DNA of 32,000 nucleotides from Paracoccus suum (GCF_003324675.1 NZ_CP030918.1:420001-452000), one strand, 5' to 3'; positions 8,994 through 21,036 are shown, counted from the first letter of the stretch. Made by a program: numbers and translations. The notes: a model not told the origin generated them from the sequence alone.

Positions 8994-9240
8994 GGGCACG
9001 CGCCGGCTCGGCGAGGGCGCCCGGCAGCGAGTCCCTGTCAGCGATCTGGCGCCCGACAAACTGCATATCGGCGCTGGGCGCCGAAATCGTCGCGGCTAGC
9101 CTCAACCTGAGGTGGTACTGTCGAATGGCGCGGTACGTCGCGACGGTATTCGGTTTCACGGTTGTTGCGGCAGGCCGCTTCGTTGCATGTACGCCCCTAA
9201 CCCCCTATCCCGCCCCTTTGCCCTGCCGCCGAGGTTTGCC

Positions 9241-10641
9241 ATGTTCCATCGCCCCATCGCCGCCGGCCTGCTGGCGCTGAGCCTCGCGGGGCTCGCCCCC
9301 GGCGCCCCGGCCCTCGCCCAGGTCCCGGGGCAGATGCCGCCCAAGCAGGTCGGCGTGGTCGAGATGCAGCTGCAGCCGGTGCCGCGCATCGTCACCCTGC
9401 CCGGCCGTGCGGTTGCCGGGGCCGAGGCGGCGATCCGCCCGCGCGTCTCGGGAATGGTCACCGAGATCCTTTATGATCCGGCGGTCCCGCTGAAAGCCGG
9501 CGCGCCGATGTTCCGGCTGGACGCAACCACCTACCAGTCCGGCGTCGTGACGGCCGAGGCGAACGTGGAATCCGCACAGGCCGCCTCGACCGAGGCTGAC
9601 GCCGCCGCCGGCCGGGCCAAGCGCCTGCTCGGCTCGGGCTCGACCCGTGTGCAGGCGGACAGCGCCCAGGCCGCTGCCGACCAGGCCGCCGCCCAGTTGC
9701 GGTCGGCCAAGGCCGCGCTCGACGTCGCCAAGGCCGAGCTTGGCTGGACGACCATCACCAGCCCCATCGACGGCTTCGCAAGCGTGGCCGCAGTCTCGGT
9801 CGGCGATCTCGTCACCGCCAATCAGGGCGAGGCGATGGCCACGGTCACGCGCCTCGATCCGATCGAAGTCGATATCCTGGTGCCGTCAGTGCGGCTGCAG
9901 TCGGTGATCGACGACATCGAATCGGGCCGGCTGAAGATGAACAAGACCCTGAACGCCACCCTGACGCTGGAGAACGGGCAGACCTACAAGGCCAAGGGCG
10001 AACTTGTGGCCCCCGGTTTCAGCGTCTCGACCACGACCGGGTCGGTCGACAACCGCTTCCGGTTCGAGAACCCGGACCGCAGGCTTTTGCCCGGCATGTT
10101 CCTTCGCGGCACGATCGAGCTGGGGACAACCCAGGCTTTCCTCGTCTCGCAATCTGCCGCGACGCGCGACCGGATCGGCGAGCTTTCGGTCTGGGTGGTC
10201 GAGGATGGCAAGGTCGTCCAGCGCAAGCTGAAGGACGATGGCAGCTGGAACAACAACTGGATTATCACCGATGGCCTGAAGGCGGGCGATCTGGTGGTGG
10301 CGGACAACCTGACCGGCCTGACGGCCGGCACGGCGGTGCAAACCCTGCCAGTGACCTATGACGAGCAGGGCGTGGTGCGCGCGGCACAGGCGACCCCCGC
10401 TGGCGGCGCGCCGGCCGCAACCCCGACCGATGGCGCGGCTTCCCCGGCGGCGAAGGCCCCAGCAGCCGTCTCAACCGGCACCGATGCGGCAGCCAGTAGC
10501 GGAGAGACGAACTCGTCCGAGGCGGCCGCCCCAGCCAGCACCCACGCCACGGACAGCGCCGAGGCACCGGCGGCCCCCGAAACCGATCCCGCAGCTGATG
10601 CGAAGCCGAATGGCGACGCGGCGGCCAAACCGGCCGAGTAG
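9241..10641 (+). CDS. RND efflux periplasmic adaptor (membrane fusion protein, AcrA/HlyD_D23-like) with a long Ala/Pro/Thr-rich C-terminal tail.
   Basis: ATG 9241 gives a signal-peptide-like start (MFHRPIAAGLLALSLAGLAPGAPALAQ) with GAGG upstream. An alpha-hairpin/coiled-coil segment (AEANVESAQAA...AAAQLRSAKAALDVAKAELGWT) is followed by barrel domains. The last ~86 aa are low complexity. Confidence 0.85.
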   Translation: MFHRPIAAGLLALSLAGLAPGAPALAQVPGQMPPKQVGVVEMQLQPVPRIVTLPGRAVAGAEAAIRPRVSGMVTEILYDPAVPLKAGAPMFRLDATTYQSGVVTAEANVESAQAASTEADAAAGRAKRLLGSGSTRVQADSAQAAADQAAAQLRSAKAALDVAKAELGWTTITSPIDGFASVAAVSVGDLVTANQGEAMATVTRLDPIEVDILVPSVRLQSVIDDIESGRLKMNKTLNATLTLENGQTYKAKGELVAPGFSVSTTTGSVDNRFRFENPDRRLLPGMFLRGTIELGTTQAFLVSQSAATRDRIGELSVWVVEDGKVVQRKLKDDGSWNNNWIITDGLKAGDLVVADNLTGLTAGTAVQTLPVTYDEQGVVRAAQATPAGGAPAATPTDGAASPAAKAPAAVSTGTDAAASSGETNSSEAAAPASTHATDSAEAPAAPETDPAADAKPNGDAAAKPAE

Positions 10642-10645
10642 TCCC

Positions 10646-13600
10646 ATGGCCCGCTTTTTCATCCACCGGCCCGTCTTTGCCTGGGTCATCGCGCTGATCG
10701 TCATGCTGGCCGGCGGCCTCGGGCTGACGCAGTTGCCGATCGAGCAATATCCCCAGATCGCGCCAACCACGGTCAGCGTGCGCGCGACTTATACCGGCGC
10801 CTCGGCCGAAATCGTCGAATCCTCGGTGACGACCGTCCTTGAGGACGCGATGACCGGGATCGAGGGGCTGATCTACATGACCTCCTCCTCGACGCCCGGT
10901 TCGGCGTCGATCTCGCTGACCTTCGACGACACGGTCGATGCGGACATTGCGCAGGTGCAGGTGCAGAACAAGCTGCAACTGGTGACCTCGCAACTGCCCT
11001 CGGTCGTGCAGCAGAGCGGCGTCAGCGTCACCCGCTCGACCTCGTCGATCCTGCTGGTCGGGGCGCTGACATCGCTGGACGGGCGCTACAGCTCGGTCCA
11101 GTTGGGCGACATCACCGCGCAGATGATCGAGAACCCGGTCCAGCGCACGCCGGGCGTCGGCTCGATCAACACCTTCAGTTCGGGTTACGCGATGCGCGTC
11201 TGGCTGGACCCGCTGAAGATGGTCCAGTACCAGGTCACGCCTTCGGACGTGATGGCCGCGGTGTCCGAGCAGAACACCAACGTTACCGTCGGCAACCTCG
11301 GCAGCCAGCCCTCGGCCGAGGGACAGCGGATCACGATCCCCGTCTCGGCCCAGTCGCAACTGTCGACCGTGCCCGAGTTCGAGAACATCCTGCTGCGCGT
11401 GGCCGAGGACGGCTCGACCGTGTTCCTGGGCGATGTCGCCCGGATCGAGATCGGGCAGGAATCCTACGGCGTCGATTCGCGCTACAACGGCCATCCGGCA
11501 GCGGGTTTCGCCGTGAACCTCGCCACTGGCGCAAACGCGGTCGACACCGCCGCCGCCGTTCGCGCGACCATCGCCGGGATCGAAAGCTCGCTGCCCCAAG
11601 GGGTCAGTGTGGTCTATCCCTACGACACCGCGCCGTTCGTCGAGAAATCAATCAACCAAGTCTACAAGACGCTGGCCGAGGCCGTAGTGCTGGTGTTCCT
11701 CGTGATCCTCGTCTTCCTGCAAAGCTGGCGCGCGACGCTGATCCCGGTGATCGCAATCCCGGTGGTTTTGCTGGGAACATTCGGCGTGCTTGCCATGGCG
11801 GGCTTCACGATCAACACGCTGACCATGTTTGCGCTGGTGCTGGCCATCGGCCTGCTGGTCGACGATGCCATCGTTGTGGTCGAGAACGTCGAGCGCGTGA
11901 TGGAGGAAGAGGGGCTCGACCCCGTTGCCGCGACCGAGCGCAGCATGGACGAGATCACCTCGGCGCTGGTCGGCATCGTGCTGGTGCTGTCGGCAGTGTT
12001 CCTGCCGATGGCCTTCATGGGCGGCGCCACGGGGGTCATCTATCGCCAGTTCTCGATCACCATCATCACCGCGATGGTGCTGTCCCTCGGGGTGGCGCTG
12101 ATCTTGACGCCGGCGATGTGCGCCAGCCTGCTGAAAAAGCGCGCCCATGGTGGCGGCATCGCCCCGGCGCGCTGGTTCAACACCGGCCTCGACAAGGTGA
12201 CGGGCGGCTATGCCGGGGTCGTCACGCGGCTGGTGCGCCGGCCGTTCATGATGCTGCTGGTGCTGCTGGCCTTTGGCTACGGCGCCTTCACCCTGTTCCA
12301 GAAGATGCCCGGCTCGTTCATCCCGCAAGAGGACCAGGGCGTGTTGATGGCGATGGTCTCGACCCCCGACGGCTCGACCATCGCGCAGACGACCGCGCTG
12401 GTCGAGGACATCGAGAAATACCTGCTGGAGCAAGAAAAAGAGACCGTGGAATCGGTCTTCGCCGCCGTTGGCTTCGGCTTCACCGGGCCGGGGCAGGACA
12501 CCGCGATGGTGTTCGTCAAGCTGCGGGACTACGCGGAGCGCGAGGGGCAGGACGCCGCCGCGCTGGTCAATCGGGCCAACGCCCATTTCTTCATGACCAA
12601 CCGCGCCGGGCAGGTGTTCGTGCTGCAACCGCCGGCCATTCAGGGCATGGGCACCTCGTCGGGCTTTACCATGTATCTGCTCGACCAGAGCGGCCAGGGC
12701 CAGGAACAGATGGCCAAGGCCGCCGACACGCTGGTCGCGACGGCGCAAAAGGATGGCCGCGTGACCAACCTGCGCGGCAACGACGCCCCCTACCAGAGCG
12801 CGCTGCGGCTGGACATCGACCAGCAACGCGCAGCCGCTTATGGCCTTTCGGTATCCGAAGTGAACGCCATGCTGTCGGTCATCTTCTCGGGGCGCGAGGT
12901 CAACGACTTTGCCCTCGGGACCGAACTGCGGCCGGTGATCGTGCAGGGCGAGGCGGCTGCCCGCTCGCAACCCGAGGACATCGACCTCTGGCATGCCCGC
13001 AACAGCGGCGGCGAGATGGTCTCGTTCGGCGCCTTCGCCAGCCGCGAATGGGACGAGCAGGCGCAGGCGCTGGCCCGCTTCGGCGGCACCCGGGCGCTGG
13101 AGATCAGTGGCAGCGCCGCGGCGGGCCTGTCCTCGGGTGCCGCGATGAACGCGATGGAGGAACTGGTCAGCGCCATGCCGGGCGGCTACGCGACCGCCTG
13201 GACCGGGCTGTCCTATCAGGAGCGTCTGTCCGGCAACCAGGCACCCATGCTGTTCGCGCTGTCGGCGCTGATCGTGTTCCTTGCTCTGGCCGCCCTTTAC
13301 GAGAGCTGGACGGTGCCGCTGGCGGTCATGATGACCGTGCCAATCGGAATCGTCGGCGCGCTGGCAGCGGCGCTTTACTTCGGCCAGTCGAACGACGTCT
13401 ATTTCAAAGTCGGCCTGCTGACGACCATCGGCCTCGCCGCGCGAAACGCGATCCTGATCGTCGAGTTCGCGCAGGCATTGGTCAAGGAGGGACGCCCCTT
13501 GCTGGAGGCTGCGATTGAAGCCTCGCGCATGCGCCTGCGGCCGATCCTGATGACGACCTTTGCCTTCATGCTGGGGGTGATGCCGCTGGCGATCGCCTCC

Positions 13601-13774
13601 GGCGCGGGTGCCGGGGCGCAGCGGTCCATCGGCATCGGCGTTCTGGGTGGCATGGCCGCCTCCGCCGCCATCGGTATCTTCCTTGTGCCGGTGTTCTATG
13701 TTGCGGTGATGCAGGCGACCCGCATGGTCCGCCGCCGCGGTCGCAAGGACCCGGCCCCCGAGGTCCGCGCCTGA
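10646..13774 (+). CDS. RND efflux permease (AcrB/MexB-like, HAE1 type).
   Basis: ATG 10646 gives the canonical MARFFIHRPVFAWVIALIVMLAGG N-terminus, 4 nt after the adaptor stop. About 1042 aa with 12-TM/2-loop RND organisation (..VLAIGLLVDDAIVVVEN.., ..GLAARNAILIVEFA..). Confidence 0.95.
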   Translation: MARFFIHRPVFAWVIALIVMLAGGLGLTQLPIEQYPQIAPTTVSVRATYTGASAEIVESSVTTVLEDAMTGIEGLIYMTSSSTPGSASISLTFDDTVDADIAQVQVQNKLQLVTSQLPSVVQQSGVSVTRSTSSILLVGALTSLDGRYSSVQLGDITAQMIENPVQRTPGVGSINTFSSGYAMRVWLDPLKMVQYQVTPSDVMAAVSEQNTNVTVGNLGSQPSAEGQRITIPVSAQSQLSTVPEFENILLRVAEDGSTVFLGDVARIEIGQESYGVDSRYNGHPAAGFAVNLATGANAVDTAAAVRATIAGIESSLPQGVSVVYPYDTAPFVEKSINQVYKTLAEAVVLVFLVILVFLQSWRATLIPVIAIPVVLLGTFGVLAMAGFTINTLTMFALVLAIGLLVDDAIVVVENVERVMEEEGLDPVAATERSMDEITSALVGIVLVLSAVFLPMAFMGGATGVIYRQFSITIITAMVLSLGVALILTPAMCASLLKKRAHGGGIAPARWFNTGLDKVTGGYAGVVTRLVRRPFMMLLVLLAFGYGAFTLFQKMPGSFIPQEDQGVLMAMVSTPDGSTIAQTTALVEDIEKYLLEQEKETVESVFAAVGFGFTGPGQDTAMVFVKLRDYAEREGQDAAALVNRANAHFFMTNRAGQVFVLQPPAIQGMGTSSGFTMYLLDQSGQGQEQMAKAADTLVATAQKDGRVTNLRGNDAPYQSALRLDIDQQRAAAYGLSVSEVNAMLSVIFSGREVNDFALGTELRPVIVQGEAAARSQPEDIDLWHARNSGGEMVSFGAFASREWDEQAQALARFGGTRALEISGSAAAGLSSGAAMNAMEELVSAMPGGYATAWTGLSYQERLSGNQAPMLFALSALIVFLALAALYESWTVPLAVMMTVPIGIVGALAAALYFGQSNDVYFKVGLLTTIGLAARNAILIVEFAQALVKEGRPLLEAAIEASRMRLRPILMTTFAFMLGVMPLAIASGAGAGAQRSIGIGVLGGMAASAAIGIFLVPVFYVAVMQATRMVRRRGRKDPAPEVRA

Positions 13775-13792: not shown

Positions 13793-15058
13793 CTAGGTGC
13801 GGAACCGGACCGTCGCGCAAAAGCCGTCGCCCCGCCCCGGTGCGGGCGAGGCCAAGGTCAGGGCCGCGCCTTCCCGCAGGGCGTGGCCCTCGACAATGGC
13901 GAGGCCAAGGCCGCTGCCTGACGCGCGGCTGGCGCCGCGCTGGAAGCGCCGGGTCAGTTGATTGAGCAGAGTGGGATCGAGCACCTGCCCGCCGTTGCAG
14001 ACTGTTAGCGTGTCGCCTGCCAGCACCACGGTGATCGGATCGGTCCCGTGCAAGACCGCGTTCTCGATCAGGTTGCGGGCGATGACGGCAAAGGCGTCCA
14101 GATCGACGGCCAGCAGGTGTGGCTTCTCCGGCAGGGCCAGTTCGGTCGTCGGAAACTCGGCCGCCACCAGTTGCAGCGCCTGCCGCACATCCTGTGGGGC
14201 CGCCTTCGGCCCCGAAGCGGCCCCGCCTTCGGCCCGGGCCAGTTCCAGCAGCTTGCCAGCGAGCCGGCCGACCCGGCGCAACTGCGCCGCCAGAGTTGAG
14301 GCGCGCCGCGCCAGGCGCGGGTCGGTCGCCTCGGCCTCCAGCATCTCGGCCTGGGCGAGGGCGGCGGCGATGGGGGTGCGCAACTCATGCGCGGCGTTCG
14401 AGGAGAAGGCGCGCTCGGCTGCGAGCGCTTCGTCGAGCCGCCCCATGAGTCGGTCGACGGCGTCATGCATCGGCTGCAGTTCGACCGGCAGTGGTGCCGC
14501 CGACAGCGGTCGCAGATCTGCTGCCCCGCGGTCCGCGACCTCGCGCGACAAGGCGTTGACCGGGGCCAGTTGCCGCCGGACAAAGCGCCACAGCCCGAAA
14601 ATGGCCAGCGGCAGTAACAATGCGAAGGGCACGAGCGCGGACAGCAGCGTCTCGCGCACCGCCTCACGTCGCTCGGCCAGCGGGTCCGCGACCTGCAGCA
14701 GTCCGCCATCGGGCAGTCGCTGCGTCAGCACCCGCAGGCCATCCACGCGCGAAAAGCCGATGGGCGTTTCCGCGGGCAACTCGCCGACAGCGTAAACCGT
14801 CTGGCCATCGGTCGCGGTCAGTCGCGCCCGCAGCGCCCCAGCAGGGCGGCGATCCCCTAGTCCCGCTGCACCCGCACCCGCCCCGATCACCGCCAGACGC
14901 TCGGATGTACGCGTCAGAGCTGCGTCATAGATCTCGTCAATTTCCACCCCCAGAACAGCCCAGCCGATGGCCAGCGCGGCCAGCCAGACCGCCACCAGCC
15001 CGCAGCCGAAGCCGAGCGTCAGATCGCGCGTCAGGCTTCGCGGCGGCGTCCTCGTCAC
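13793..15058 (-). CDS. Sensor histidine kinase (QseC/BasS-like; two TM segments, HAMP, HisKA, HATPase).
   Basis: H-box SNAAHELRTPIAA, N-box NLIENAVLHG and G-box GSGLGLAIVEG are present. I place the start at GTG 15058, which overlaps the response-regulator stop (GTGA). The longer ORF-track start would overlap the regulator gene by 265 nt. Confidence 0.85.
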   Translation of the reverse strand: MTRTPPRSLTRDLTLGFGCGLVAVWLAALAIGWAVLGVEIDEIYDAALTRTSERLAVIGAGAGAAGLGDRRPAGALRARLTATDGQTVYAVGELPAETPIGFSRVDGLRVLTQRLPDGGLLQVADPLAERREAVRETLLSALVPFALLLPLAIFGLWRFVRRQLAPVNALSREVADRGAADLRPLSAAPLPVELQPMHDAVDRLMGRLDEALAAERAFSSNAAHELRTPIAAALAQAEMLEAEATDPRLARRASTLAAQLRRVGRLAGKLLELARAEGGAASGPKAAPQDVRQALQLVAAEFPTTELALPEKPHLLAVDLDAFAVIARNLIENAVLHGTDPITVVLAGDTLTVCNGGQVLDPTLLNQLTRRFQRGASRASGSGLGLAIVEGHALREGAALTLASPAPGRGDGFCATVRFRT

Positions 15059-15711
15059 GGCGCGATCCGGTAGCCGACGCCACGCTGCGTCTCGATCGCG
15101 CTGCGGCCAAGCTTGCGCCGCAGCCGGCTGATATAGACTTCGACCGTGTTGCTCTCGGCGCCCTCCTCGAAGGAATAGATGCGGTCCTCGATCTGCGCCC
15201 GGCTCACAAAGCGGCCGGCACGCGCGATGAGGGTTTCCAGCACGATCCATTCGCGGCGGCCGACCTCGACGGGGCCGTCCGGGCCGGTGACCCGACGCCG
15301 GGCCAGATCGACCTGACACGCGCCCAGGCTTATGATCGGGCTGGGGTTGCCACCATATCGGCGGGCGACGGCGCCGATCCGGGCGGACAGTTCGGCCAGA
15401 TCGAAGGGTTTGACCAGATAGTCGTCCGCCCCGGCGTCGAGCCCCGCGATCCGCTCGGAAATACGGTCGCGCGCGGTCATCACGATCACGGGCACCTGGT
15501 GCCCCGCCGCCCGCAGCCGGCGCAGGAAGGCCAGCCCGTCGCCATCCGGCAACATCAGATCGAGCAGCACCAGATCATAGCTCATGGCCGACATGCAGGC
15601 ATCCGCATCGTCCAGCGTGGTCATCCAGTCGGGGAGGTGACCGTCGGCGGCGATCCGGTCGCGCACCGCGGCGCCGATCCCCTCGTCATCCTCGATCAGC
15701 AAGATCCGCAC
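15055..15711 (-). CDS. OmpR/PhoB-family response regulator.
   Basis: The receiver reads VRILLIEDDEGIG...DLVLLDLMLPDGDG...PVIVMTA...KPF. The winged-helix C-terminus reads ...VEVYISRLRRKL...TQRGVGYRIAP. GTG 15711 is chosen as the start. The ORF-track start at 15756 is a TTG that adds 15 atypical residues. Confidence 0.85.
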   Translation of the reverse strand: MRILLIEDDEGIGAAVRDRIAADGHLPDWMTTLDDADACMSAMSYDLVLLDLMLPDGDGLAFLRRLRAAGHQVPVIVMTARDRISERIAGLDAGADDYLVKPFDLAELSARIGAVARRYGGNPSPIISLGACQVDLARRRVTGPDGPVEVGRREWIVLETLIARAGRFVSRAQIEDRIYSFEEGAESNTVEVYISRLRRKLGRSAIETQRGVGYRIAP

Positions 15712-15779
15712 CCGACGTCCCCACGCGACAGGATCGCACGGTGACGCGAAATGCAAGGCAAGACCAGCCTTTGGCAGAT

Positions 15780-15798
15780 GCGTTCAGCCAGCGTTCAG
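15780..15798. promoter_or_regulatory. Tandem direct repeat GCGTTCAG-N3-GCGTTCAG with an 11-bp period; candidate OmpR-family response-regulator box.
   Basis: Exact 8-mers sit at 15780-15787 and 15791-15798. They lie in the 109-bp region between the response-regulator start (15711, minus) and the phosphatase start (15821, plus). Confidence 0.45.
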
Positions 15799-15820
15799 GT
15801 TGAAGGCGCAAGATATCCGG

Positions 15821-16414
15821 ATGACTTCGCTGATGCCGTCGCGCCCGCCCTCACGCCTCGCCCTGCGCTTCTTGCTGCGGGCGGGGCTGTTTTTCATCGG
15901 CTTGCTGATCGCCGCCGCCGGCTGGGCGGGCTTCCTGCAATACCGCGGCAACTTCCATCCGGTTCGCGCCGGCGAGATGTATCGTTCGGCCCAGCCGAGC
16001 CCCGAGGCGCTGACCAACTGGGCTGGCGTCAACGGCATTCGCAGCGTGGTCAACCTGCGTGGCGCCTCGGACTCCGACTGGTATCGCGACGAGATTGCAA
16101 CCTCGAAGCGCCTTGGCCTCGCCCATGCCGATTTCCGCATGAGCGCCGGCGAGCATCTGACCCCGGCCCGGGCCAACGAATTGCTCGCGTTGCTGGATTC
16201 AATGCCCGGCCCGGTGCTGATCCACTGCAAGTCGGGGGCCGACCGTACCGGCCTCGCGTCCGCCTTGTGGCTAGCGCGTCACGGCGGCGGCGAAGAGGCA
16301 GCCGAGTCGCAGATATCTTTCCGTTTTGGCCATGTCTCGCTGCCGCTGACCGCCGCCTGGCCCATGGACCAGAGCTGGGAGGCCCTGGAGCCCGAGATGG
16401 GATTTGCCAGCTGA
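15821..16414 (+). CDS. Membrane-anchored Cys-based phosphatase (PTP/dual-specificity superfamily, CX5R).
   Basis: Active-site signature VLIHCKSGADRTGLAS (HCxxGxxRT). There is one N-terminal TM helix (LALRFLLRAGLFFIGLLIAAAGWAGFL). The start is uncertain: ATG 15821, ATG 15833 or TTG 15800. The stop TGA overlaps the next ATG (TGATG). Confidence 0.75.
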   Translation: MTSLMPSRPPSRLALRFLLRAGLFFIGLLIAAAGWAGFLQYRGNFHPVRAGEMYRSAQPSPEALTNWAGVNGIRSVVNLRGASDSDWYRDEIATSKRLGLAHADFRMSAGEHLTPARANELLALLDSMPGPVLIHCKSGADRTGLASALWLARHGGGEEAAESQISFRFGHVSLPLTAAWPMDQSWEALEPEMGFAS

Positions 16415-17040
16415 TGAGCGTCACCGCCGACTCAAACCACACCATCACCCCCGCCAACCAGCGCCTTCGGATCGCGGTGTTGCGCATCCTGTTCGTGCTC
16501 GCCGCCCTGCCGATCCTCCTGGGCGTTCCCGTCTGGCACGGCGCCGCGCTGTCGCTGGTGCACACCCTGGGCACCTTAACGATCATCGCCGCGGTGCTGG
16601 GCCGGTTCTGGGCGATTCTCTATATCGGCGGTCGCAAGAACGCGACAGTCATGCAGGACGGCCCCTATTCGCTCTGCCGCCACCCGCTCTATTCCTTCTC
16701 GATCATCGGGGTGGTCGGCTTTGGCCTCGCGCTCGGCAGCGTGGTGCTGGCGGTGGCGCTCGGCGCGCTCGCCGCTGCTGTCCTGTGGCTGACCGCCCGA
16801 CGGGAGGAGCGTTTCCTGCGCGCCGCCTTTGGCCCCGCTTACGACGCCTACGCCGCCCACGTGCCCCGCCTGATGCCGCGCCTGTCCAATTTTCACACCC
16901 CCCCGCGCATCACGGTCGATTTGTCCGTCCTGCGCCGCAACCTGGCCGATGCACTGGTGTTTCTGACCGCAATCCCGCTGGCCGCGGCGATCCAGGCGAT
17001 GCACGCAGCGGGTTACGGGGCCGCCTTCCGCCTCTGGTAA
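16414..17040 (+). CDS. ICMT/PEMT-family integral-membrane methyltransferase (isoprenylcysteine carboxyl methyltransferase-like).
   Basis: 208 aa and polytopic. The family core is present: GPYSLCRHPLYSFSIIG ... REERFLRAAFGPAYDAYAAHVPRLMP (the RHPxY...EE..L...FG..Y..Y motif). The ORF-track entry 15751..17040 is the same frame running open upstream. ATG 16414 is the coupled start. Confidence 0.8.
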   Translation: MSVTADSNHTITPANQRLRIAVLRILFVLAALPILLGVPVWHGAALSLVHTLGTLTIIAAVLGRFWAILYIGGRKNATVMQDGPYSLCRHPLYSFSIIGVVGFGLALGSVVLAVALGALAAAVLWLTARREERFLRAAFGPAYDAYAAHVPRLMPRLSNFHTPPRITVDLSVLRRNLADALVFLTAIPLAAAIQAMHAAGYGAAFRLW

Positions 17041-17078
17041 CCCTCCCGCTGCGGGTCGGCCCGCCATCCTGCACCGCG

Positions 17079-17876
17079 CTAGCCCAGACGGTGGACGCCC
17101 TCGGGCGCGACGCCGAATGCAGCGAGGGCCATCCACACCGCCATGGCGATCATCATCAGGTTCTCGACCAGCGAGATAAAGCCCAGCGGCACGTTGCTGC
17201 CCCCGCCGACGCAGGCGCATTTCAACTCGCGGTTCTCGACATAGACCGCCTTGAAGACCGACACCGCGCCGACCGTCCCGATGAAAAGTGCGATGGGCAC
17301 CGACAGCCAGGTCAGCGCGCCCGCGATCATCAGAACGCCTGCCAGCCCCTCGGCAAAGGGATAGATATAGCCGTAGGGCACCCAGCGCTCGGCCAGAAGG
17401 TCGTAGTTCAGGAACATCGTGGCGAACGTCTCGACGTTCTGCAGCTTGAGCAGCGCCAGCACGGCCATTGAGAAGCCGATGAACCATTCCGCGGCCATCA
17501 GCGTCAGCGGGTTTCCGGTGACAGCATAGCTTGCCGCCATCGCCATCAACGCCGTCGTCGCGAACAGCGCGATGACCGGGCGATAGCTGGTCGCCTTGGG
17601 ATCCGCGACACTCTTGCCGAGGAAGCGGCGCAGGTCGTCATGCCCGCCGATTCGTTTGCCGTCGATAAAGATCTGGGGCGTGGTCGCAACGCCGTGTTCG
17701 GCCTTGAAGGCCTGGGTCTGCTCGCGTGTCTCGAGGTGATGATCCTCGACCTGGTAGCCGGCGCGCTTGAGCAGATGCATGGATTTCAGCCCATAGGGGC
17801 AGGTGTGCCCGGGCATCACCATGCGGTACAGCGCCGCTTTCGTTCCGGGTGCTGGATGTTTGCTCAGGTCCGACAT
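17079..17876 (-). CDS. Fusion protein: an N-terminal glutaredoxin-like domain (monothiol CPYG) joined to a C-terminal MauE/DoxX-like 4-TM membrane domain.
   Basis: ATG 17876 (MSDLSKH...) is preceded by AAGGAA. The Grx fold reads ALYRMVMPGHTCPYGLKS...TTPQIFIDGKRIGGHDDLRRFL. Four hydrophobic helices follow, with ELKCACVGGGSNVPLG before the last one. Confidence 0.8.
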   Translation of the reverse strand: MSDLSKHPAPGTKAALYRMVMPGHTCPYGLKSMHLLKRAGYQVEDHHLETREQTQAFKAEHGVATTPQIFIDGKRIGGHDDLRRFLGKSVADPKATSYRPVIALFATTALMAMAASYAVTGNPLTLMAAEWFIGFSMAVLALLKLQNVETFATMFLNYDLLAERWVPYGYIYPFAEGLAGVLMIAGALTWLSVPIALFIGTVGAVSVFKAVYVENRELKCACVGGGSNVPLGFISLVENLMMIAMAVWMALAAFGVAPEGVHRLG

Positions 17877-17906
17877 CTCACGTTCCTTGTGGTGGGGCCG
17901 GGGCAG

Positions 17907-17938
17907 ATATAGGGTCTGTACCATGGTACAGAGTCAAG
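17907..17938 (-). promoter_or_regulatory. MerR-type promoter/operator for the Grx-MauE gene: -35, 20-bp spacer carrying an 18-bp perfect palindrome, -10.
   Basis: The minus strand reads CTTGAC (17938-17933), then T-CTGTACCATGGTACAG-ACC, then CTATAT (17912-17907). The palindrome TCTGTACCATGGTACAGA spans 17915-17932. The layout mirrors Tn21/Tn501 merO (TTGACTCCGTAC...GTACGGA) inside an overlong spacer. Confidence 0.65.
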
Positions 17939-18327
17939 AGTCGAACACGCTGACGATTGGCGGCCTTGCAGCAGGCGGGAAGGTCGGGGTCGAGACGGTC
18001 CGATTCTACCAGCGCAAGGGTCTGCTCGGCACGCCCCACCGCGTTGGCGGGATCCGTCGCTACGGCGGCGAGGATCTGCGCCGCCTGCGCTTTATCCGCC
18101 AGGCACAGGCGGCCGGGTTTACACTGGAGGAGATCAAGGAACTGCTGCTCCTCGACGCCGGCGAGGACCGCGCGCGGGCGCGCGAACTCGCCCACGCAAG
18201 GGTCGAGCATCTGAACGCCAAGATCGCCGATTTAGAGCGCGCAAGGGACGCCCTGCGGCGGCTCGCAAACGAATGCGAGCATGGCGTCAAGGGCCCCTGC
18301 CCGATCCTCGCGTCATTCGGGATTTAG
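17923..18327 (+). CDS. MerR-family metal/thiol-responsive regulator of the Hg-MerR clade by sequence, but with only two Cys.
   Basis: 134 aa. MVQSQESNTLTIGGLAAGGKVGVETVRFYQRKGLL...IRRYGGEDLRRLRFIRQAQAAGFTLEEIKELL...ANECEHGVKGPCPILASFGI is colinear with Tn21 MerR. ATG 17923 is in frame with the ORF-track entry 17803..18327 and gives a MerR-length N-terminus. Confidence 0.9.
   Translation: MVQSQESNTLTIGGLAAGGKVGVETVRFYQRKGLLGTPHRVGGIRRYGGEDLRRLRFIRQAQAAGFTLEEIKELLLLDAGEDRARARELAHARVEHLNAKIADLERARDALRRLANECEHGVKGPCPILASFGI

Positions 18328-20959: not shown

Positions 20960-21036
<77 letters not shown>

What the first reader, a model, noticed from the sequence alone, without database searches (positions are those of the whole stretch)
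15821..17040. Translationally coupled pair of a membrane-anchored CX5R phosphatase and an ICMT-family methyltransferase: candidate envelope-lipid remodelling module
Two genes overlap by 1 nt (TGATG at 16412-16416). The first encodes a single-pass membrane protein with a canonical Cys phosphatase P-loop (HCKSGADRTG). The second encodes a polytopic ICMT/PEMT-type methyltransferase (RHPLY...EERFL..FGP.Y..Y). Both families include enzymes that act on lipid head groups rather than proteins. CX5R phosphatases such as PTEN and PTPMT1 dephosphorylate phospholipids. The ICMT-like LmtA of Leptospira methylates the 1-phosphate of lipid A. The pair is divergently transcribed from a QseC/BasS-like two-component system and lies next to an RND pump. 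That is the kind of context in which lipid A and envelope modification genes are found. Substrate and function are unknown. A phosphatase/methyltransferase duo acting on one membrane substrate is an inference only.
Basis: partly seen in the sequence, partly recalled or inferred. Interest (0 to 1): 0.6.

Follow-up and report, generated by a model that had tools for sequence, protein, structure and literature searches.

The report
Membrane phosphatase and CzcN-type methyltransferase operon
A Paracoccus operon couples a membrane-anchored phosphatase that faces the periplasm to a membrane methyltransferase of the unexplained CzcN metal-resistance family, and related genomes suggest, without proving, that the pair helps neutralise charged cell-envelope lipids under metal or cationic stress.

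Summary
Two intact genes (15821-16414 and 16414-17040, + strand) share a TGATG stop/start overlap. The first encodes a single-pass, signal-anchored Cys phosphatase (HCKSGADRTG). The second encodes an ICMT/PEMT-fold methyltransferase. They lie divergent from a PmrA/QseB-like response regulator and QseC/PmrB-like kinase, beside an AcrB-type RND pump. The window is Paracoccus suum.

They are P. aeruginosa TpbA (a periplasmic phosphatase) and CzcN/NccN of Cupriavidus metal-efflux clusters (function unknown). PTEN/PTPMT1 and LmtA are not close; LmtA membership fails.
- **The pairing recurs.** It appears in three separate methyltransferase clades with three gene orders. One is a Brevundimonas eight-gene operon: RR-HK-OEP-MFP-RND-phosphatase-PAP2-methyltransferase.
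- **Each gene is usually alone.** Adjacency is only about 10% of sampled loci.
- **Phosphatase neighbours point to the envelope.** Elsewhere its homologues sit beside two-component systems, EptA, an ArnT-like glycosylation cluster, PAP2 and DedA-like genes.
- **Topology has independent support.** A Cronobacter glycosyltransferase-TM-phosphatase fusion places the phosphatase domain in the periplasm.
- **A candidate regulator box exists.** A conserved TTCAG-N6-TTCAG repeat lies in the divergent promoter region.

My best reading is a two-component-controlled module that lowers envelope (probably LPS/lipid A) charge. The substrate is unproven.

The parts
15821..16414 (+). Gene A: signal-anchored Cys-based PTP/DSP-fold phosphatase (197 aa; alternative starts TTG 15800 and ATG 15833)
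   Evidence: ORF and translation. Pfam Y_phosphatase3, PTP-NADK, Tc-R-P and PTP-SAK above cut-off. AlphaFold model pLDDT 96.8 with a PTP fold; top PDB fold hits are Cdc14 and TpbA. Best sequence hit in PDB is TpbA at E 1e-8.
15869..15943 (+). N-terminal transmembrane signal-anchor (residues about 17-41), preceded by an Arg-rich cytoplasmic tail
   Evidence: Hydropathy scan. The N-tail has net positive charge in 49 of 52 homologues, and the catalytic domain starts about 5 residues after the TM. The model shows one helix 12-41 followed by the first beta-strand at 46. A Cronobacter GT32-TM-PTP fusion supports N-in/C-out.
16223..16252 (+). P-loop HCKSGADRTG (catalytic Cys136, Arg142; Asp141 inside the loop)
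   Evidence: Read directly from the sequence. H135, C136, G139, D141, R142 and G144 are invariant in 55 homologues.
16412..16416 (+). TGATG stop/start overlap between gene A and gene B
   Evidence: Sequence. Spacing is similarly tight in orthologous pairs. In the reversed-order pair of L097 the spacer is 8 nt.
16414..17040 (+). Gene B: polytopic ICMT/PEMT-fold, CzcN/NccN-family SAM-dependent methyltransferase (208 aa)
   Evidence: Pfam PEMT and ICMT above cut-off. Ma-ICMT 4a2n matches at E 1.5e-11. Fold hits are AtTam46, Ma-ICMT and ICMT. 38.5% identity over residues 17-200 to czcN of pMOL30.
16678..16692 (+). RHPLY motif (cofactor-binding region of the ICMT fold)
   Evidence: R89, H90, P91, L92 and Y93 are invariant in 49 homologues. 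The motif aligns to RHPMY of Ma-ICMT.
16804..16818 (+). EERFL motif, start of the C-terminal EE..L...FG..Y..Y cofactor-binding helix
   Evidence: E131, E132 and L135 are invariant. The region aligns to KEEELLIEEFG of Ma-ICMT.
15780..15798 (+). Direct repeat GCGTTCAG-N3-GCGTTCAG (TTCAG-N6-TTCAG, 11-bp period): candidate OmpR/PmrA-family response-regulator box in the divergent promoter region
   Evidence: It occurs only once in the 32-kb window, against 0.02 expected. The repeat finder reports it. The same repeat is conserved at the same place in seven orthologous loci. Its architecture matches the BqsR box TTAAG(N)6TTAAG.
15055..15756 (-). OmpR-family response regulator, PmrA/QseB-like (likely start near 15711)
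   Evidence: Pfam Response_reg plus Trans_reg_C. NCBIfam best hits are PmrA 208 bits and QseB 174 bits. Orthologues at 61-71% identity sit divergent from the phosphatase in seven loci.
13793..15060 (-). Sensor histidine kinase, QseC/PmrB-like, with two TMs and a periplasmic loop of about 95 aa that begins VEIDEIYD
   Evidence: Pfam HisKA plus HATPase_c. NCBIfam QseC 123 bits and PmrB 103 bits. Sensor region read.
9112..13774 (+). MFP (9112-10641) and AcrB/AcrD-type RND permease (about 10646-13774), convergent with the kinase; membership of the module is uncertain
   Evidence: NCBIfam RND_mfp, and RND_permease_1 at 1359 bits. For membership: RND genes are fused into one operon with phosphatase and methyltransferase homologues in Brevundimonas, and czcN lies beside czcCBA. 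Against: no RND in the closest Paracoccaceae loci and no regulator box upstream of the pump.

Best explanation
The two genes form one operon that remodels an anionic envelope lipid or glycolipid from both faces of the inner membrane. It is probably controlled by the divergently encoded PmrA/QseB/BqsR-like two-component system.

Shown:
- Gene A is an intact CX5R phosphatase of the PTP fold, tethered by one N-terminal transmembrane helix.
- Gene B is an intact ICMT-fold methyltransferase of the CzcN/NccN family.
- The genes overlap by one base.
- The pairing recurs in distant lineages.
- A conserved direct repeat lies in the shared promoter region.

Inferred:
1. The kinase senses a periplasmic cation or envelope stress, and the regulator binds the TTCAG-N6-TTCAG box.
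2. The methyltransferase uses cytoplasmic SAM to methyl-esterify an acidic group (phosphate or carboxylate) of a lipid-linked substrate at the inner leaflet, as LmtA does on the lipid A 1-phosphate.
3. After the substrate is flipped, the phosphatase domain, held directly on the periplasmic membrane surface, removes a phosphate.
4. The most likely substrate is lipid A or LPS core, as with LpxE/LpxF/PmrG and as proposed for Caulobacter CtpA.
5. The net effect is fewer negative charges and metal-binding phosphates on the cell surface. That would raise tolerance to metal cations and cationic antimicrobials.
For: Intact catalytic motifs and folds.

Periplasmic orientation:
- Arg-rich N-tail in 49 of 52 homologues, and a single Cys in the six homologues checked.
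- The closest solved relative is the periplasmic TpbA.
- The Cronobacter fusion has a cytoplasmic-type GT32 domain, one TM, then the PTP domain.

Recurrent pairing:
- 8 of 78 phosphatase loci have the methyltransferase immediately downstream.
- 6 of 63 methyltransferase loci have the phosphatase adjacent, two of them in reversed order.
- Brevundimonas carries RR-HK-OEP-MFP-RND-PTP-PAP2-ICMT with abutting genes.
- Partnered methyltransferases fall in three separate clades.

Two-component link:
- An OmpR-type regulator lies within 6 kb in 27 of 78 phosphatase loci, and directly divergent in seven.
- Two-component domains top the neighbour census.
- The conserved box is documented, and resembles the BqsR box of a cationic-stress regulon.

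Envelope or lipid A neighbours of homologues:
- EptA in 6 loci, passing the NCBIfam 'phosphoethanolamine--lipid A transferase' model.
- LAB_N-GT39-GT2-epimerase upstream on the same strand as the phosphatase (VIT, PepSY and cytochrome b561 genes between) on a P. marcusii plasmid.
- PAP2 in 4 loci.
- DedA/VTT-like proteins.
- Spermine_synth.

Precedents: a PTP homologue needed for lipid A dephosphorylation in Caulobacter. LmtA-type phosphate methylation by an ICMT-fold enzyme is established knowledge; the NCBIfam model name appears.
Against: - There is no biochemical or genetic evidence for any substrate.
- Most homologues of each gene are not adjacent to the other: about 90% of sampled loci, including Ruegeria pomeroyi.
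- The methyltransferase is no closer to LmtA (37.5 bits) than to generic ICMT (47.9 bits).
- CzcN itself responds little to metals and has no known function.
- The fold search cannot separate lipid from protein phosphatases: Cdc14 and TpbA rank above PTPMT1.
- The regulator box lies only about 20-35 nt upstream of the phosphatase start. It may therefore serve mainly the regulator's own promoter.
- Many neighbours point to metal homeostasis rather than lipid A specifically.
- CtpA homology could not be tested. CtpA also seems to have a cytoplasmic C-terminus, because it was depleted through an ssrA tag.
Confidence: 0.4

Rival explanations
1. Metal-sequestration accessory, PbrB-like. The periplasmic-face phosphatase (together with PAP2 in Brevundimonas) hydrolyses a lipid pyrophosphate such as undecaprenyl pyrophosphate. 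The released phosphate precipitates exported metal ions. The CzcN-type protein would be an accessory of metal efflux with a separate, unknown role.
For: - The Brevundimonas operon joins a CopR/CzcR-like two-component system, an OEP-MFP-RND pump, the PTP, PAP2 and the methyltransferase, with CDF and MntP genes next door.
- The best NCBIfam hits of that PAP2 are undecaprenyl-diphosphatases.
- czcN sits in czcNICBADRSE.
- Other neighbours include VIT, PepSY, cytochrome b561, OFeT, BacA and CDF genes.
- PbrA efflux plus the PbrB C55-PP phosphatase is a documented lead-resistance mechanism.
- The phosphatase's relatives include pyrophosphate-specific PFA-DSP/Siw14 enzymes.
Against: - The window's regulator is PmrA/QseB-like and its RND pump is AcrB-type multidrug, not metal-type.
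- The EptA and ArnT-like contexts point to LPS modification.
- This model gives the translationally coupled methyltransferase no role.
- The PAP2 scores are far below the equivalog cut-offs.
Confidence: 0.2
2. TpbA-like periplasmic protein phosphatase. Gene A dephosphorylates a phospho-Tyr/Ser/Thr site on a periplasmic or membrane protein, for example a signalling protein. It would then tune signalling rather than lipid chemistry, and the methyltransferase would act on something else.
For: - TpbA is the best sequence match in PDB (E 1e-8) and the best bacterial fold match.
- TpbA is described as a periplasmic dual-specificity phosphatase.
- The strongest and most frequent neighbour class is two-component systems.
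Against: - Identity to TpbA is only about 22%.
- The family has a conserved C-terminal extension (residues about 155-197, with invariant S166, G170 and H171) that lies beyond the TpbA alignment.
- The enzyme is membrane-anchored with almost no linker, unlike soluble TpbA.
- The phosphoryl groups of the kinase and regulator are cytoplasmic and so out of reach.
- The fusion to a glycosyltransferase and the EptA, ArnT and PAP2 neighbours fit a glycolipid substrate better.
Confidence: 0.12
3. The two genes share an operon but have independent functions. The methyltransferase may be a housekeeping Rhodobacterales membrane enzyme, or a small-molecule methylase like MddA, that was captured next to a stress-induced phosphatase. 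They would share no substrate or pathway.
For: - The methyltransferase family is widespread in roseobacters as a stand-alone gene in conserved synteny with DUF1611 and MR_MLE genes.
- About 90% of the loci of either family lack the partner.
- ICMT-fold enzymes have very diverse substrates: the NCBIfam names include LmtA and MddA.
Against: - Adjacency arose in three separate clades and three gene orders, always tightly spaced and on the same strand. That is hard to explain without selection for co-expression.
- MddA similarity is negligible: 14 bits against a cut-off of 270.
Confidence: 0.13

Closest known systems
TpbA (PA3885) of Pseudomonas aeruginosa, periplasmic dual-specificity phosphatase (PDB 4r0s, 2m3v)
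   Same: Best sequence match among solved structures (profile E 1e-8) and best bacterial fold match. Both have the LYRSA.P motif, an HCK.G..RTG P-loop and an exported catalytic domain.
   Different: Only about 22% identity. TpbA is a soluble periplasmic protein with a cleaved signal peptide, whereas this family keeps a membrane anchor with almost no linker. This family also has a conserved C-terminal extension of about 40 residues. TpbA is reported to act on a protein; the substrate here is unknown.
CzcN / NccN of Cupriavidus metallidurans czc and ncc heavy-metal RND clusters
   Same: Full-length homology (38.5% identity over residues 17-200). The family-specific positions R19, G63-R64, W66, K75, GPYS, R89, P91-L92-Y93, E131 and D179 are shared. 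Both sit beside a two-component system with a regulator site directly upstream, and beside an RND pump.
   Different: czcN is not paired with a PTP phosphatase on pMOL30. The RND pump there is metal-type CzcCBA, while the window's is AcrB-type. The function of CzcN is unknown, so the comparison gives context but no mechanism.
LmtA of Leptospira (ICMT-fold lipid A 1-phosphate O-methyltransferase)
   Same: Same ICMT/PEMT fold and cofactor motifs. It is a precedent for an enzyme of this fold methylating a lipid phosphate.
   Different: The score is 37.5 bits against the NCBIfam cut-off of 325, lower than for the generic isoprenylcysteine methyltransferase model. The protein is therefore not a member, and there is no evidence that the substrate is the same.
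LpxE/LpxF (PAP2 lipid A phosphatases), PmrG/Ais, and the PmrAB-controlled EptA/Arn modifications
   Same: The proposed logic is the same: a two-component system induces removal or masking of LPS phosphates at the periplasmic face. Homologues of the phosphatase are encoded beside EptA, ArnT-like GT39/GT2, PAP2 and a His_Phos_1 protein.
   Different: The fold and chemistry are unrelated: a Cys-based PTP against PAP2 or histidine phosphatases. Lipid A activity has not been demonstrated.
CtpA of Caulobacter crescentus (essential tyrosine-phosphatase homologue needed for lipid A dephosphorylation)
   Same: An alphaproteobacterial PTP-type enzyme implicated in removing the lipid A 1- or 4'-phosphate, and proposed to replace LpxF.
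   Different: The sequence was not obtainable, so homology is untested. No Caulobacter protein appears among the top 120 hits to the Brevundimonas family member. CtpA was depleted through a C-terminal ssrA tag, which implies a cytoplasmic C-terminus, whereas this family is predicted to be periplasmic.
PbrA/PbrB lead-resistance pair (efflux pump plus PAP2 C55-PP phosphatase)
   Same: An efflux system encoded together with a periplasmic-face membrane phosphatase in a metal-resistance context. This resembles the Brevundimonas RND-PTP-PAP2 operon.
   Different: PbrB is a PAP2 enzyme and PbrA a P-type ATPase. No methyltransferase is involved. The window's two-component system and pump are not metal-type.

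Membership tests
Cys-based PTP/DSP superfamily | HCX5R(S/T) P-loop with catalytic Cys and Arg | tested here: met
   HCKSGADRTG at nt 16223-16252. C136 and R142 are invariant in 55 homologues.
Cys-based PTP/DSP superfamily | PTP alpha/beta fold | tested here: met
   The AlphaFold model has pLDDT 96.8. There are 153 PDB matches at E <= 0.001, all of the listed top 50 PTP/DSP-fold proteins, with TMt up to about 0.75.
Cys-based PTP/DSP superfamily | General-acid Asp on a loop upstream of the P-loop | tested here: inconclusive
   D104 is not invariant; it is Y or S in some homologues. The invariant acidic residue is D141 inside the P-loop. Whether D141 serves as the acid cannot be decided from sequence.
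TpbA-like periplasmic DSP | Significant sequence similarity over the catalytic domain | tested here: met
   Profile against PDB: 4r0s_A at E 1.1e-8 and 38 bits, covering profile positions 20-153.
TpbA-like periplasmic DSP | Catalytic domain exported to the periplasm | tested here: inconclusive
   This is predicted only. The evidence is a positive N-tail in 49 of 52 homologues and one TM, plus the GT32-TM-PTP fusion. There is no experimental topology and no dedicated signal-peptide predictor was available.
PTEN / PTPMT1 lipid phosphatases | Specific sequence relationship to the family | tested here: not met
   PTPMT1 3rgo matches at E 0.006 and 19 bits over the P-loop region only, and PTEN is not among the 60 matches listed. 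PTPMT1 is rank 15 in the fold search.
ICMT/PEMT superfamily | Pfam PF04191/PF04140 above the gathering score | tested here: met
   PEMT 44.0 bits (cut-off 25) and ICMT 29.2 bits (cut-off 24).
ICMT/PEMT superfamily | Cofactor-binding motifs RHPxY and EE..L...FG..Y..Y, in a polytopic membrane fold | tested here: met
   The motifs are invariant in 49 homologues and align to Ma-ICMT. The model has pLDDT 88.4, and the top non-spurious fold hits are 8xku_G, 4a2n and 5vg9. Hydropathy gives 4-5 TM segments.
LmtA (lipid A Kdo2 1-phosphate O-methyltransferase, TIGR04571) | Score at or above the curated cut-off of the NCBIfam model | tested here: not met
   37.5 bits against a cut-off of 325.
Protein-S-isoprenylcysteine O-methyltransferase (NF040696) | Score at or above the curated cut-off | tested here: not met
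   47.9 bits against a cut-off of 160.
MddA methanethiol S-methyltransferase (NF045656) | Score at or above the curated cut-off | tested here: not met
   14.1 bits against a cut-off of 270.
CzcN/NccN family | Full-length homology to czcN of pMOL30, including the N-terminal and C-terminal extensions outside the ICMT core | tested here: met
   tblastn gives 38.5% identity over residues 17-200 at E 2e-14 against 7.3 Gb. The alignment shares R19, the GR.W block, K75 and D179. No curated HMM for CzcN was available to test.
CzcN/NccN family | Genomic association with an RND efflux system and a two-component system | tested here: met
   In the window: MFP-RND, HK-RR, then the operon. Brevundimonas has all of them in a single operon. 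The link in the window is by proximity only: there is no shared box, and it is not conserved in close relatives.
PmrAB/BqsRS-type envelope-modification regulon | Regulator and kinase orthologous to PmrA/PmrB (or BqsR/BqsS) | tested here: inconclusive
   PmrA is the best regulator hit but below the cut-off (208 against 330). QseC and PmrB are the best kinase hits, also below cut-off.
PmrAB/BqsRS-type envelope-modification regulon | Tandem hexamer/pentamer box with 11-bp period in the target promoter | tested here: met
   GCGTTCAG occurs twice at 15780-15798, unique in the window, and is conserved in seven orthologous intergenic regions. Compare TTAAG(N)6TTAAG. Binding is untested.
PmrAB/BqsRS-type envelope-modification regulon | Product modifies lipid A or LPS | not testable with these tools
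   This needs lipid A mass spectrometry or enzyme assays. Only neighbour evidence is available.
CtpA (Caulobacter) | Sequence homology to CtpA | not testable with these tools
   The CtpA sequence and the 2011 paper are not held.

The most novel reading that the evidence does not exclude
The membrane-anchored, periplasm-facing PTP-fold enzymes are a previously unrecognised class of lipid A/LPS phosphatases, unrelated to PAP2 LpxE/LpxF. The CzcN/NccN-type ICMT-fold proteins are O-methyltransferases that cap a remaining acidic group of the same glycolipid at the cytoplasmic face. Together they would form a new two-component-controlled pathway of surface-charge neutralisation. This would also give the first biochemical function to CzcN, which has been unexplained since the czc determinant was described.
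Probability: 0.2. Interest if true: 0.8.

Novelty: new variant of a known kind. Interest (0 to 1): 0.55.

Why it matters
- **A testable role for CzcN/NccN.** These proteins sit in textbook heavy-metal resistance determinants, yet their function is still listed as unknown. A recurrent operon partner and a defined regulatory context turn that gap into a testable hypothesis.
- **A possible new phosphatase class.** If the phosphatase acts on lipid A or another envelope lipid, it would add a Cys-based PTP-fold class to the PAP2 and histidine-phosphatase enzymes known to trim LPS phosphates. It would also give context to the unexplained Caulobacter CtpA result.
- **Possible practical relevance.** Relatives occur on plasmids of Cronobacter, Piscirickettsia, Paracoccus yeei and rhizobia, next to EptA-type (mcr-like) genes. 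A role in tolerance to polymyxin or metal cations would therefore matter in practice.

Tried and rejected
- **PTEN/PTPMT1 kinship.** Only marginal P-loop matches, so I rejected it as the closest family.
- **LmtA, generic isoprenylcysteine methyltransferase and MddA membership.** All score far below the curated cut-offs.
- **Looking up the window's own methyltransferase in the contig index.** It is not on record.
- **One universally conserved neighbour of either gene.** There is none. Clustering of flanking ORFs shows variable contexts.
- **Conservation of the RND, Grx-MauE and MerR neighbours in the closest Paracoccaceae loci.** They are not conserved.
- **A second regulator box in the window, in particular upstream of the RND operon.** None found.
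- **Sigma-70 promoter and terminator scan of 15600-17300.** No promoter-like site. The two overlapping terminator-like hits lie inside gene A and are no more than chance.
- **Homology to Caulobacter CtpA.** The sequence could not be obtained: the 2011 paper and the supplements are not held. No Caulobacter protein is among the top hits to the Brevundimonas member.
- **Fold search as a guide to substrate.** It returns generic DSP/PTP folds and cannot separate lipid from protein substrates.
- **L044 (phosphatase and methyltransferase 4.5 kb apart).** The genes between them are unrelated (an MFS transporter and class I methyltransferase-like ORFs), so I did not count it as a pair.
Full report
**1. 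What is in the sequence**

The window is from Paracoccus suum: both proteins have 100% matches annotated in that species on a 3.25-Mb contig.

Gene A runs from the ATG at 15821 to 16414 on the + strand. A TTG at 15800 and an ATG at 15833 are alternative starts, and the NCBI model of 193 aa fits 15833. Gene B runs from 16414 to 17040. The stop TGA (16412-16414) and the start ATG (16414-16416) share one base. G+C content is uniform across the region.

Gene A carries HCKSGADRTG and matches four Pfam PTP/DSP families above their cut-offs. Gene B matches PEMT and ICMT above their cut-offs. Catalytic and cofactor-binding residues are invariant in 55 and 49 homologues respectively.

Upstream, on the other strand, lie an OmpR-family response regulator and a histidine kinase. 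Their best NCBIfam hits are PmrA/QseB and QseC/PmrB, all below the equivalog cut-offs. Convergent with the kinase is an MFP plus an AcrB/AcrD-type RND permease that passes the RND_permease_1 model.

**2. Anatomy and topology**

The phosphatase has an Arg-rich N-terminal tail, one hydrophobic helix, and then the invariant LQ..GNFH..V...YRSAQP that opens the catalytic domain.

- The N-tail is net positive in 49 of 52 homologues.
- In the six homologues checked, the mature domain contains a single cysteine, the catalytic one.
- The AlphaFold model (pLDDT 96.8) shows one long helix (residues 12-41) running almost directly into the first strand of a PTP fold.
- The best solved relative by sequence is TpbA of P. 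aeruginosa, a periplasmic phosphatase (E 1e-8; literature). TpbA is also the best bacterial fold hit.

An independent argument comes from a Cronobacter plasmid. There, a homologous PTP domain is fused behind a DXD-type glycosyltransferase domain and a single transmembrane helix. A nucleotide-sugar glycosyltransferase must be cytoplasmic, so the PTP domain must be outside.

I therefore take the phosphatase to be a signal-anchored enzyme held on the periplasmic face of the inner membrane. This is an inference, not a measurement.

The methyltransferase has four to five membrane segments and the cytoplasm-facing RHPLY and EE..L...FG..Y..Y cofactor region of Ma-ICMT. If the two enzymes share a substrate, they must act in sequence on a molecule that crosses the membrane.

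**3. Co-occurrence**

- A scan of one genome per species with the phosphatase profile returned 78 loci, the best of 526. The methyltransferase lies immediately downstream on the same strand in eight of them, all Paracoccaceae. In Brevundimonas it is separated from the phosphatase by one PAP2 gene.
- A metagenome scan with the methyltransferase profile found the phosphatase adjacent in 6 of 63 loci with enough flank. Two of these have the reverse order, with an 8-nt spacer.
- The Ruegeria pomeroyi orthologue stands alone.
- On a tree of the methyltransferases, the partnered ones fall in three separate clades with three architectures: A-B, B-A and A-PAP2-B.

So each gene is usually found without the other next to it. 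The linkage has nonetheless arisen or been kept repeatedly in different forms, which argues for a functional connection.

**4. The wider module**

In Brevundimonas aurantiaca and relatives, eight genes abut or overlap on one strand: response regulator, kinase, outer-membrane factor, MFP, RND permease, PTP phosphatase, PAP2 phosphatase and ICMT-family methyltransferase. That methyltransferase is a full-length homologue of the window protein (39% identity, E 7e-35).

The component classes are those of the window, but the partners are analogous rather than orthologous. The Brevundimonas regulator is CopR/CzcR-like. Its RND permease is only 24% identical to the window's and is not AcrB-type.

A tblastn against annotated plasmids shows that the window methyltransferase belongs with CzcN of C. 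metallidurans pMOL30 (38.5% identity over 88% of its length) and with NccN. czcN sits in czcN-czcI-czcCBA-czcD-czcRS-czcE, with the CzcR site directly upstream. Its function is still described as unknown.

**5. Neighbours of the phosphatase family**

Two-component genes are the most frequent neighbours.

- An OmpR-type regulator lies within 6 kb in 27 of 78 loci.
- An orthologous regulator/kinase pair sits directly divergent in seven loci, two of which lack the methyltransferase.

Other recurrent neighbours are envelope-modification genes:

| Neighbour | Where |
|---|---|
| EptA-type phosphoethanolamine transferases passing the NCBIfam 'phosphoethanolamine--lipid A transferase' model; some loci read PTP-EptA-PTP-receiver plus a second EptA | six Rhizobiaceae loci |
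| PAP2 phosphatases | four loci |
| LAB_N-GT39(ArnT-like)-GT2-epimerase-VIT-PepSY-cytochrome b561-PTP on one strand | a P. marcusii plasmid |
| DedA/VTT-like proteins | Agrobacterium loci, Phyllobacterium plasmid |
| A spermidine-synthase-like gene | Rhodovulum |

Metal-homeostasis genes are also common: VIT, CDF, MntP, OFeT and rubrerythrin.

**6. Regulation**

The intergenic region between the regulator and gene A holds GCGTTCAG twice with 11-bp spacing (15780-15798).

- The pattern TTCAG-N6-KTCAG occurs once in the 32-kb window against 0.02 expected.
- It is conserved at the same place in seven orthologous loci.
- Its architecture matches the BqsR box TTAAG(N)6TTAAG, which overlaps the polymerase site of genes for cationic-stress tolerance.

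The box lies about 20-35 nt upstream of the gene A start and about 50-90 nt upstream of the regulator's start. It may therefore serve autoregulation, the operon, or both. No second box is present, in particular none upstream of the RND operon.

**7. Interpretation**

The best-supported reading is a two-component-controlled operon that lowers the negative charge of an envelope lipid. A cytoplasmic-face methyl esterification would come first, then a periplasmic-face dephosphorylation.

Lipid A or LPS is the most likely target, for three reasons:
- the EptA, ArnT-like and PAP2 neighbours;
- the LpxE/LpxF/PmrG logic (established knowledge);
- the Caulobacter precedent, where the tyrosine-phosphatase homologue CtpA is needed to remove lipid A phosphates.

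I give this reading 0.4.

The main rival is the PbrA/PbrB logic: efflux plus periplasmic phosphate release from a lipid pyrophosphate. It fits the Brevundimonas and czc contexts, and I give it 0.2. A TpbA-like protein phosphatase gets 0.12. Co-transcription without a shared pathway gets 0.13.

CtpA homology could not be tested. CtpA was depleted through a C-terminal ssrA tag, which suggests a topology different from the one predicted here. I use it only as a functional precedent.

**8. Novelty and score**

Both genes are ordinary-looking members of large superfamilies and are annotated generically. What is new is the combination:
- a PTP-fold, membrane-anchored, periplasm-facing phosphatase family;
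- repeated linkage to CzcN-type methyltransferases, to two-component systems and to lipid A modification genes.

No paper in the searchable library describes this. It is best filed as a new variant of a known kind, namely inducible remodelling of envelope charge. The evidence is contextual only, so interest is moderate at 0.55.

Noticed in passing
window 17079-17924 (-) and 17926-18327 (+): A 281-aa protein fuses a glutaredoxin domain to a MauE-type membrane domain. It is divergent from a MerR-family regulator whose best hits are MerR, ZntR and CueR, all below cut-off. This may be a metal or thiol-stress unit directly downstream of the operon. It is not conserved next to the pair in relatives, apart from a distant copy in L006.
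   Followed up: partly
window 10358-10645 (+): The RND permease ORF extends about 96 codons upstream of the conserved MARFFIHRP start, as a Pro/Arg-rich in-frame stretch. This is probably a high-G+C ORF artefact and not coding sequence.
   Followed up: no
L161 537-10008 (Brevundimonas aurantiaca; also L162, L163, L077): An eight-gene same-strand operon, RR-HK-OEP-MFP-RND-PTP-PAP2-ICMT, with abutting or overlapping genes. CDF and MntP genes lie downstream on the other strand.
   Followed up: yes
L169 6023-7474 (Cronobacter dublinensis pCDU1): A natural fusion of a GT32 DXD glycosyltransferase domain, one TM helix and the PTP domain (483 aa). It lies next to a His_Phos_1 protein and an acyltransferase-family gene.
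   Followed up: partly
L167 1694-7477 (Paracoccus marcusii plasmid pCP157_03): An arn/rgt-like cluster (LAB_N, GT39/PMT, GT2, NAD-dependent epimerase) is followed by VIT, PepSY_2, cytochrome b561 and then the phosphatase, all on one strand. A similar PepSY, cytochrome b, two-component and VIT1 set lies beside the phosphatase in B. variabilis (L164).
   Followed up: partly
L061 3274-8874 (Rhizobiales isolate; also L052, L053, L019, L062, L050): Two paralogous phosphatases flank an EptA-type transferase and are followed by a receiver-only response regulator. A second EptA-family gene is convergent.
   Followed up: partly
L166 (Phyllobacterium sp. 628 plasmid p_2): An RR-HK-phosphatase operon and, 4.6 kb away on the other strand, an RR-HK-DUF3313-ICMT operon. 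A DedA gene lies nearby. Each enzyme has its own two-component system here.
   Followed up: no
L079/L080 (Ruegeria pomeroyi) and many metagenome loci: In roseobacters the methyltransferase orthologue stands alone in conserved synteny with DUF1611 and MR_MLE (dipeptide epimerase-like) genes and a divergent HpcH/HpaI gene. A 'CzcN domain-containing protein' (SPO2852), probably this orthologue, is listed for R. pomeroyi DSS-3.
   Followed up: no
window 20960-21036 (-): A tRNA-Arg(CCG) gene lies about 4 kb downstream of the operon. No sign of an integration site was looked for.
   Followed up: no
gene A residues about 155-197 (window 16283-16411): A family-specific C-terminal extension with invariant S166, G170, H171 and nearly invariant Q164, P175, D183, E187, E190. 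It lies beyond the region that aligns to TpbA. It could be a substrate-recognition element.
   Followed up: no
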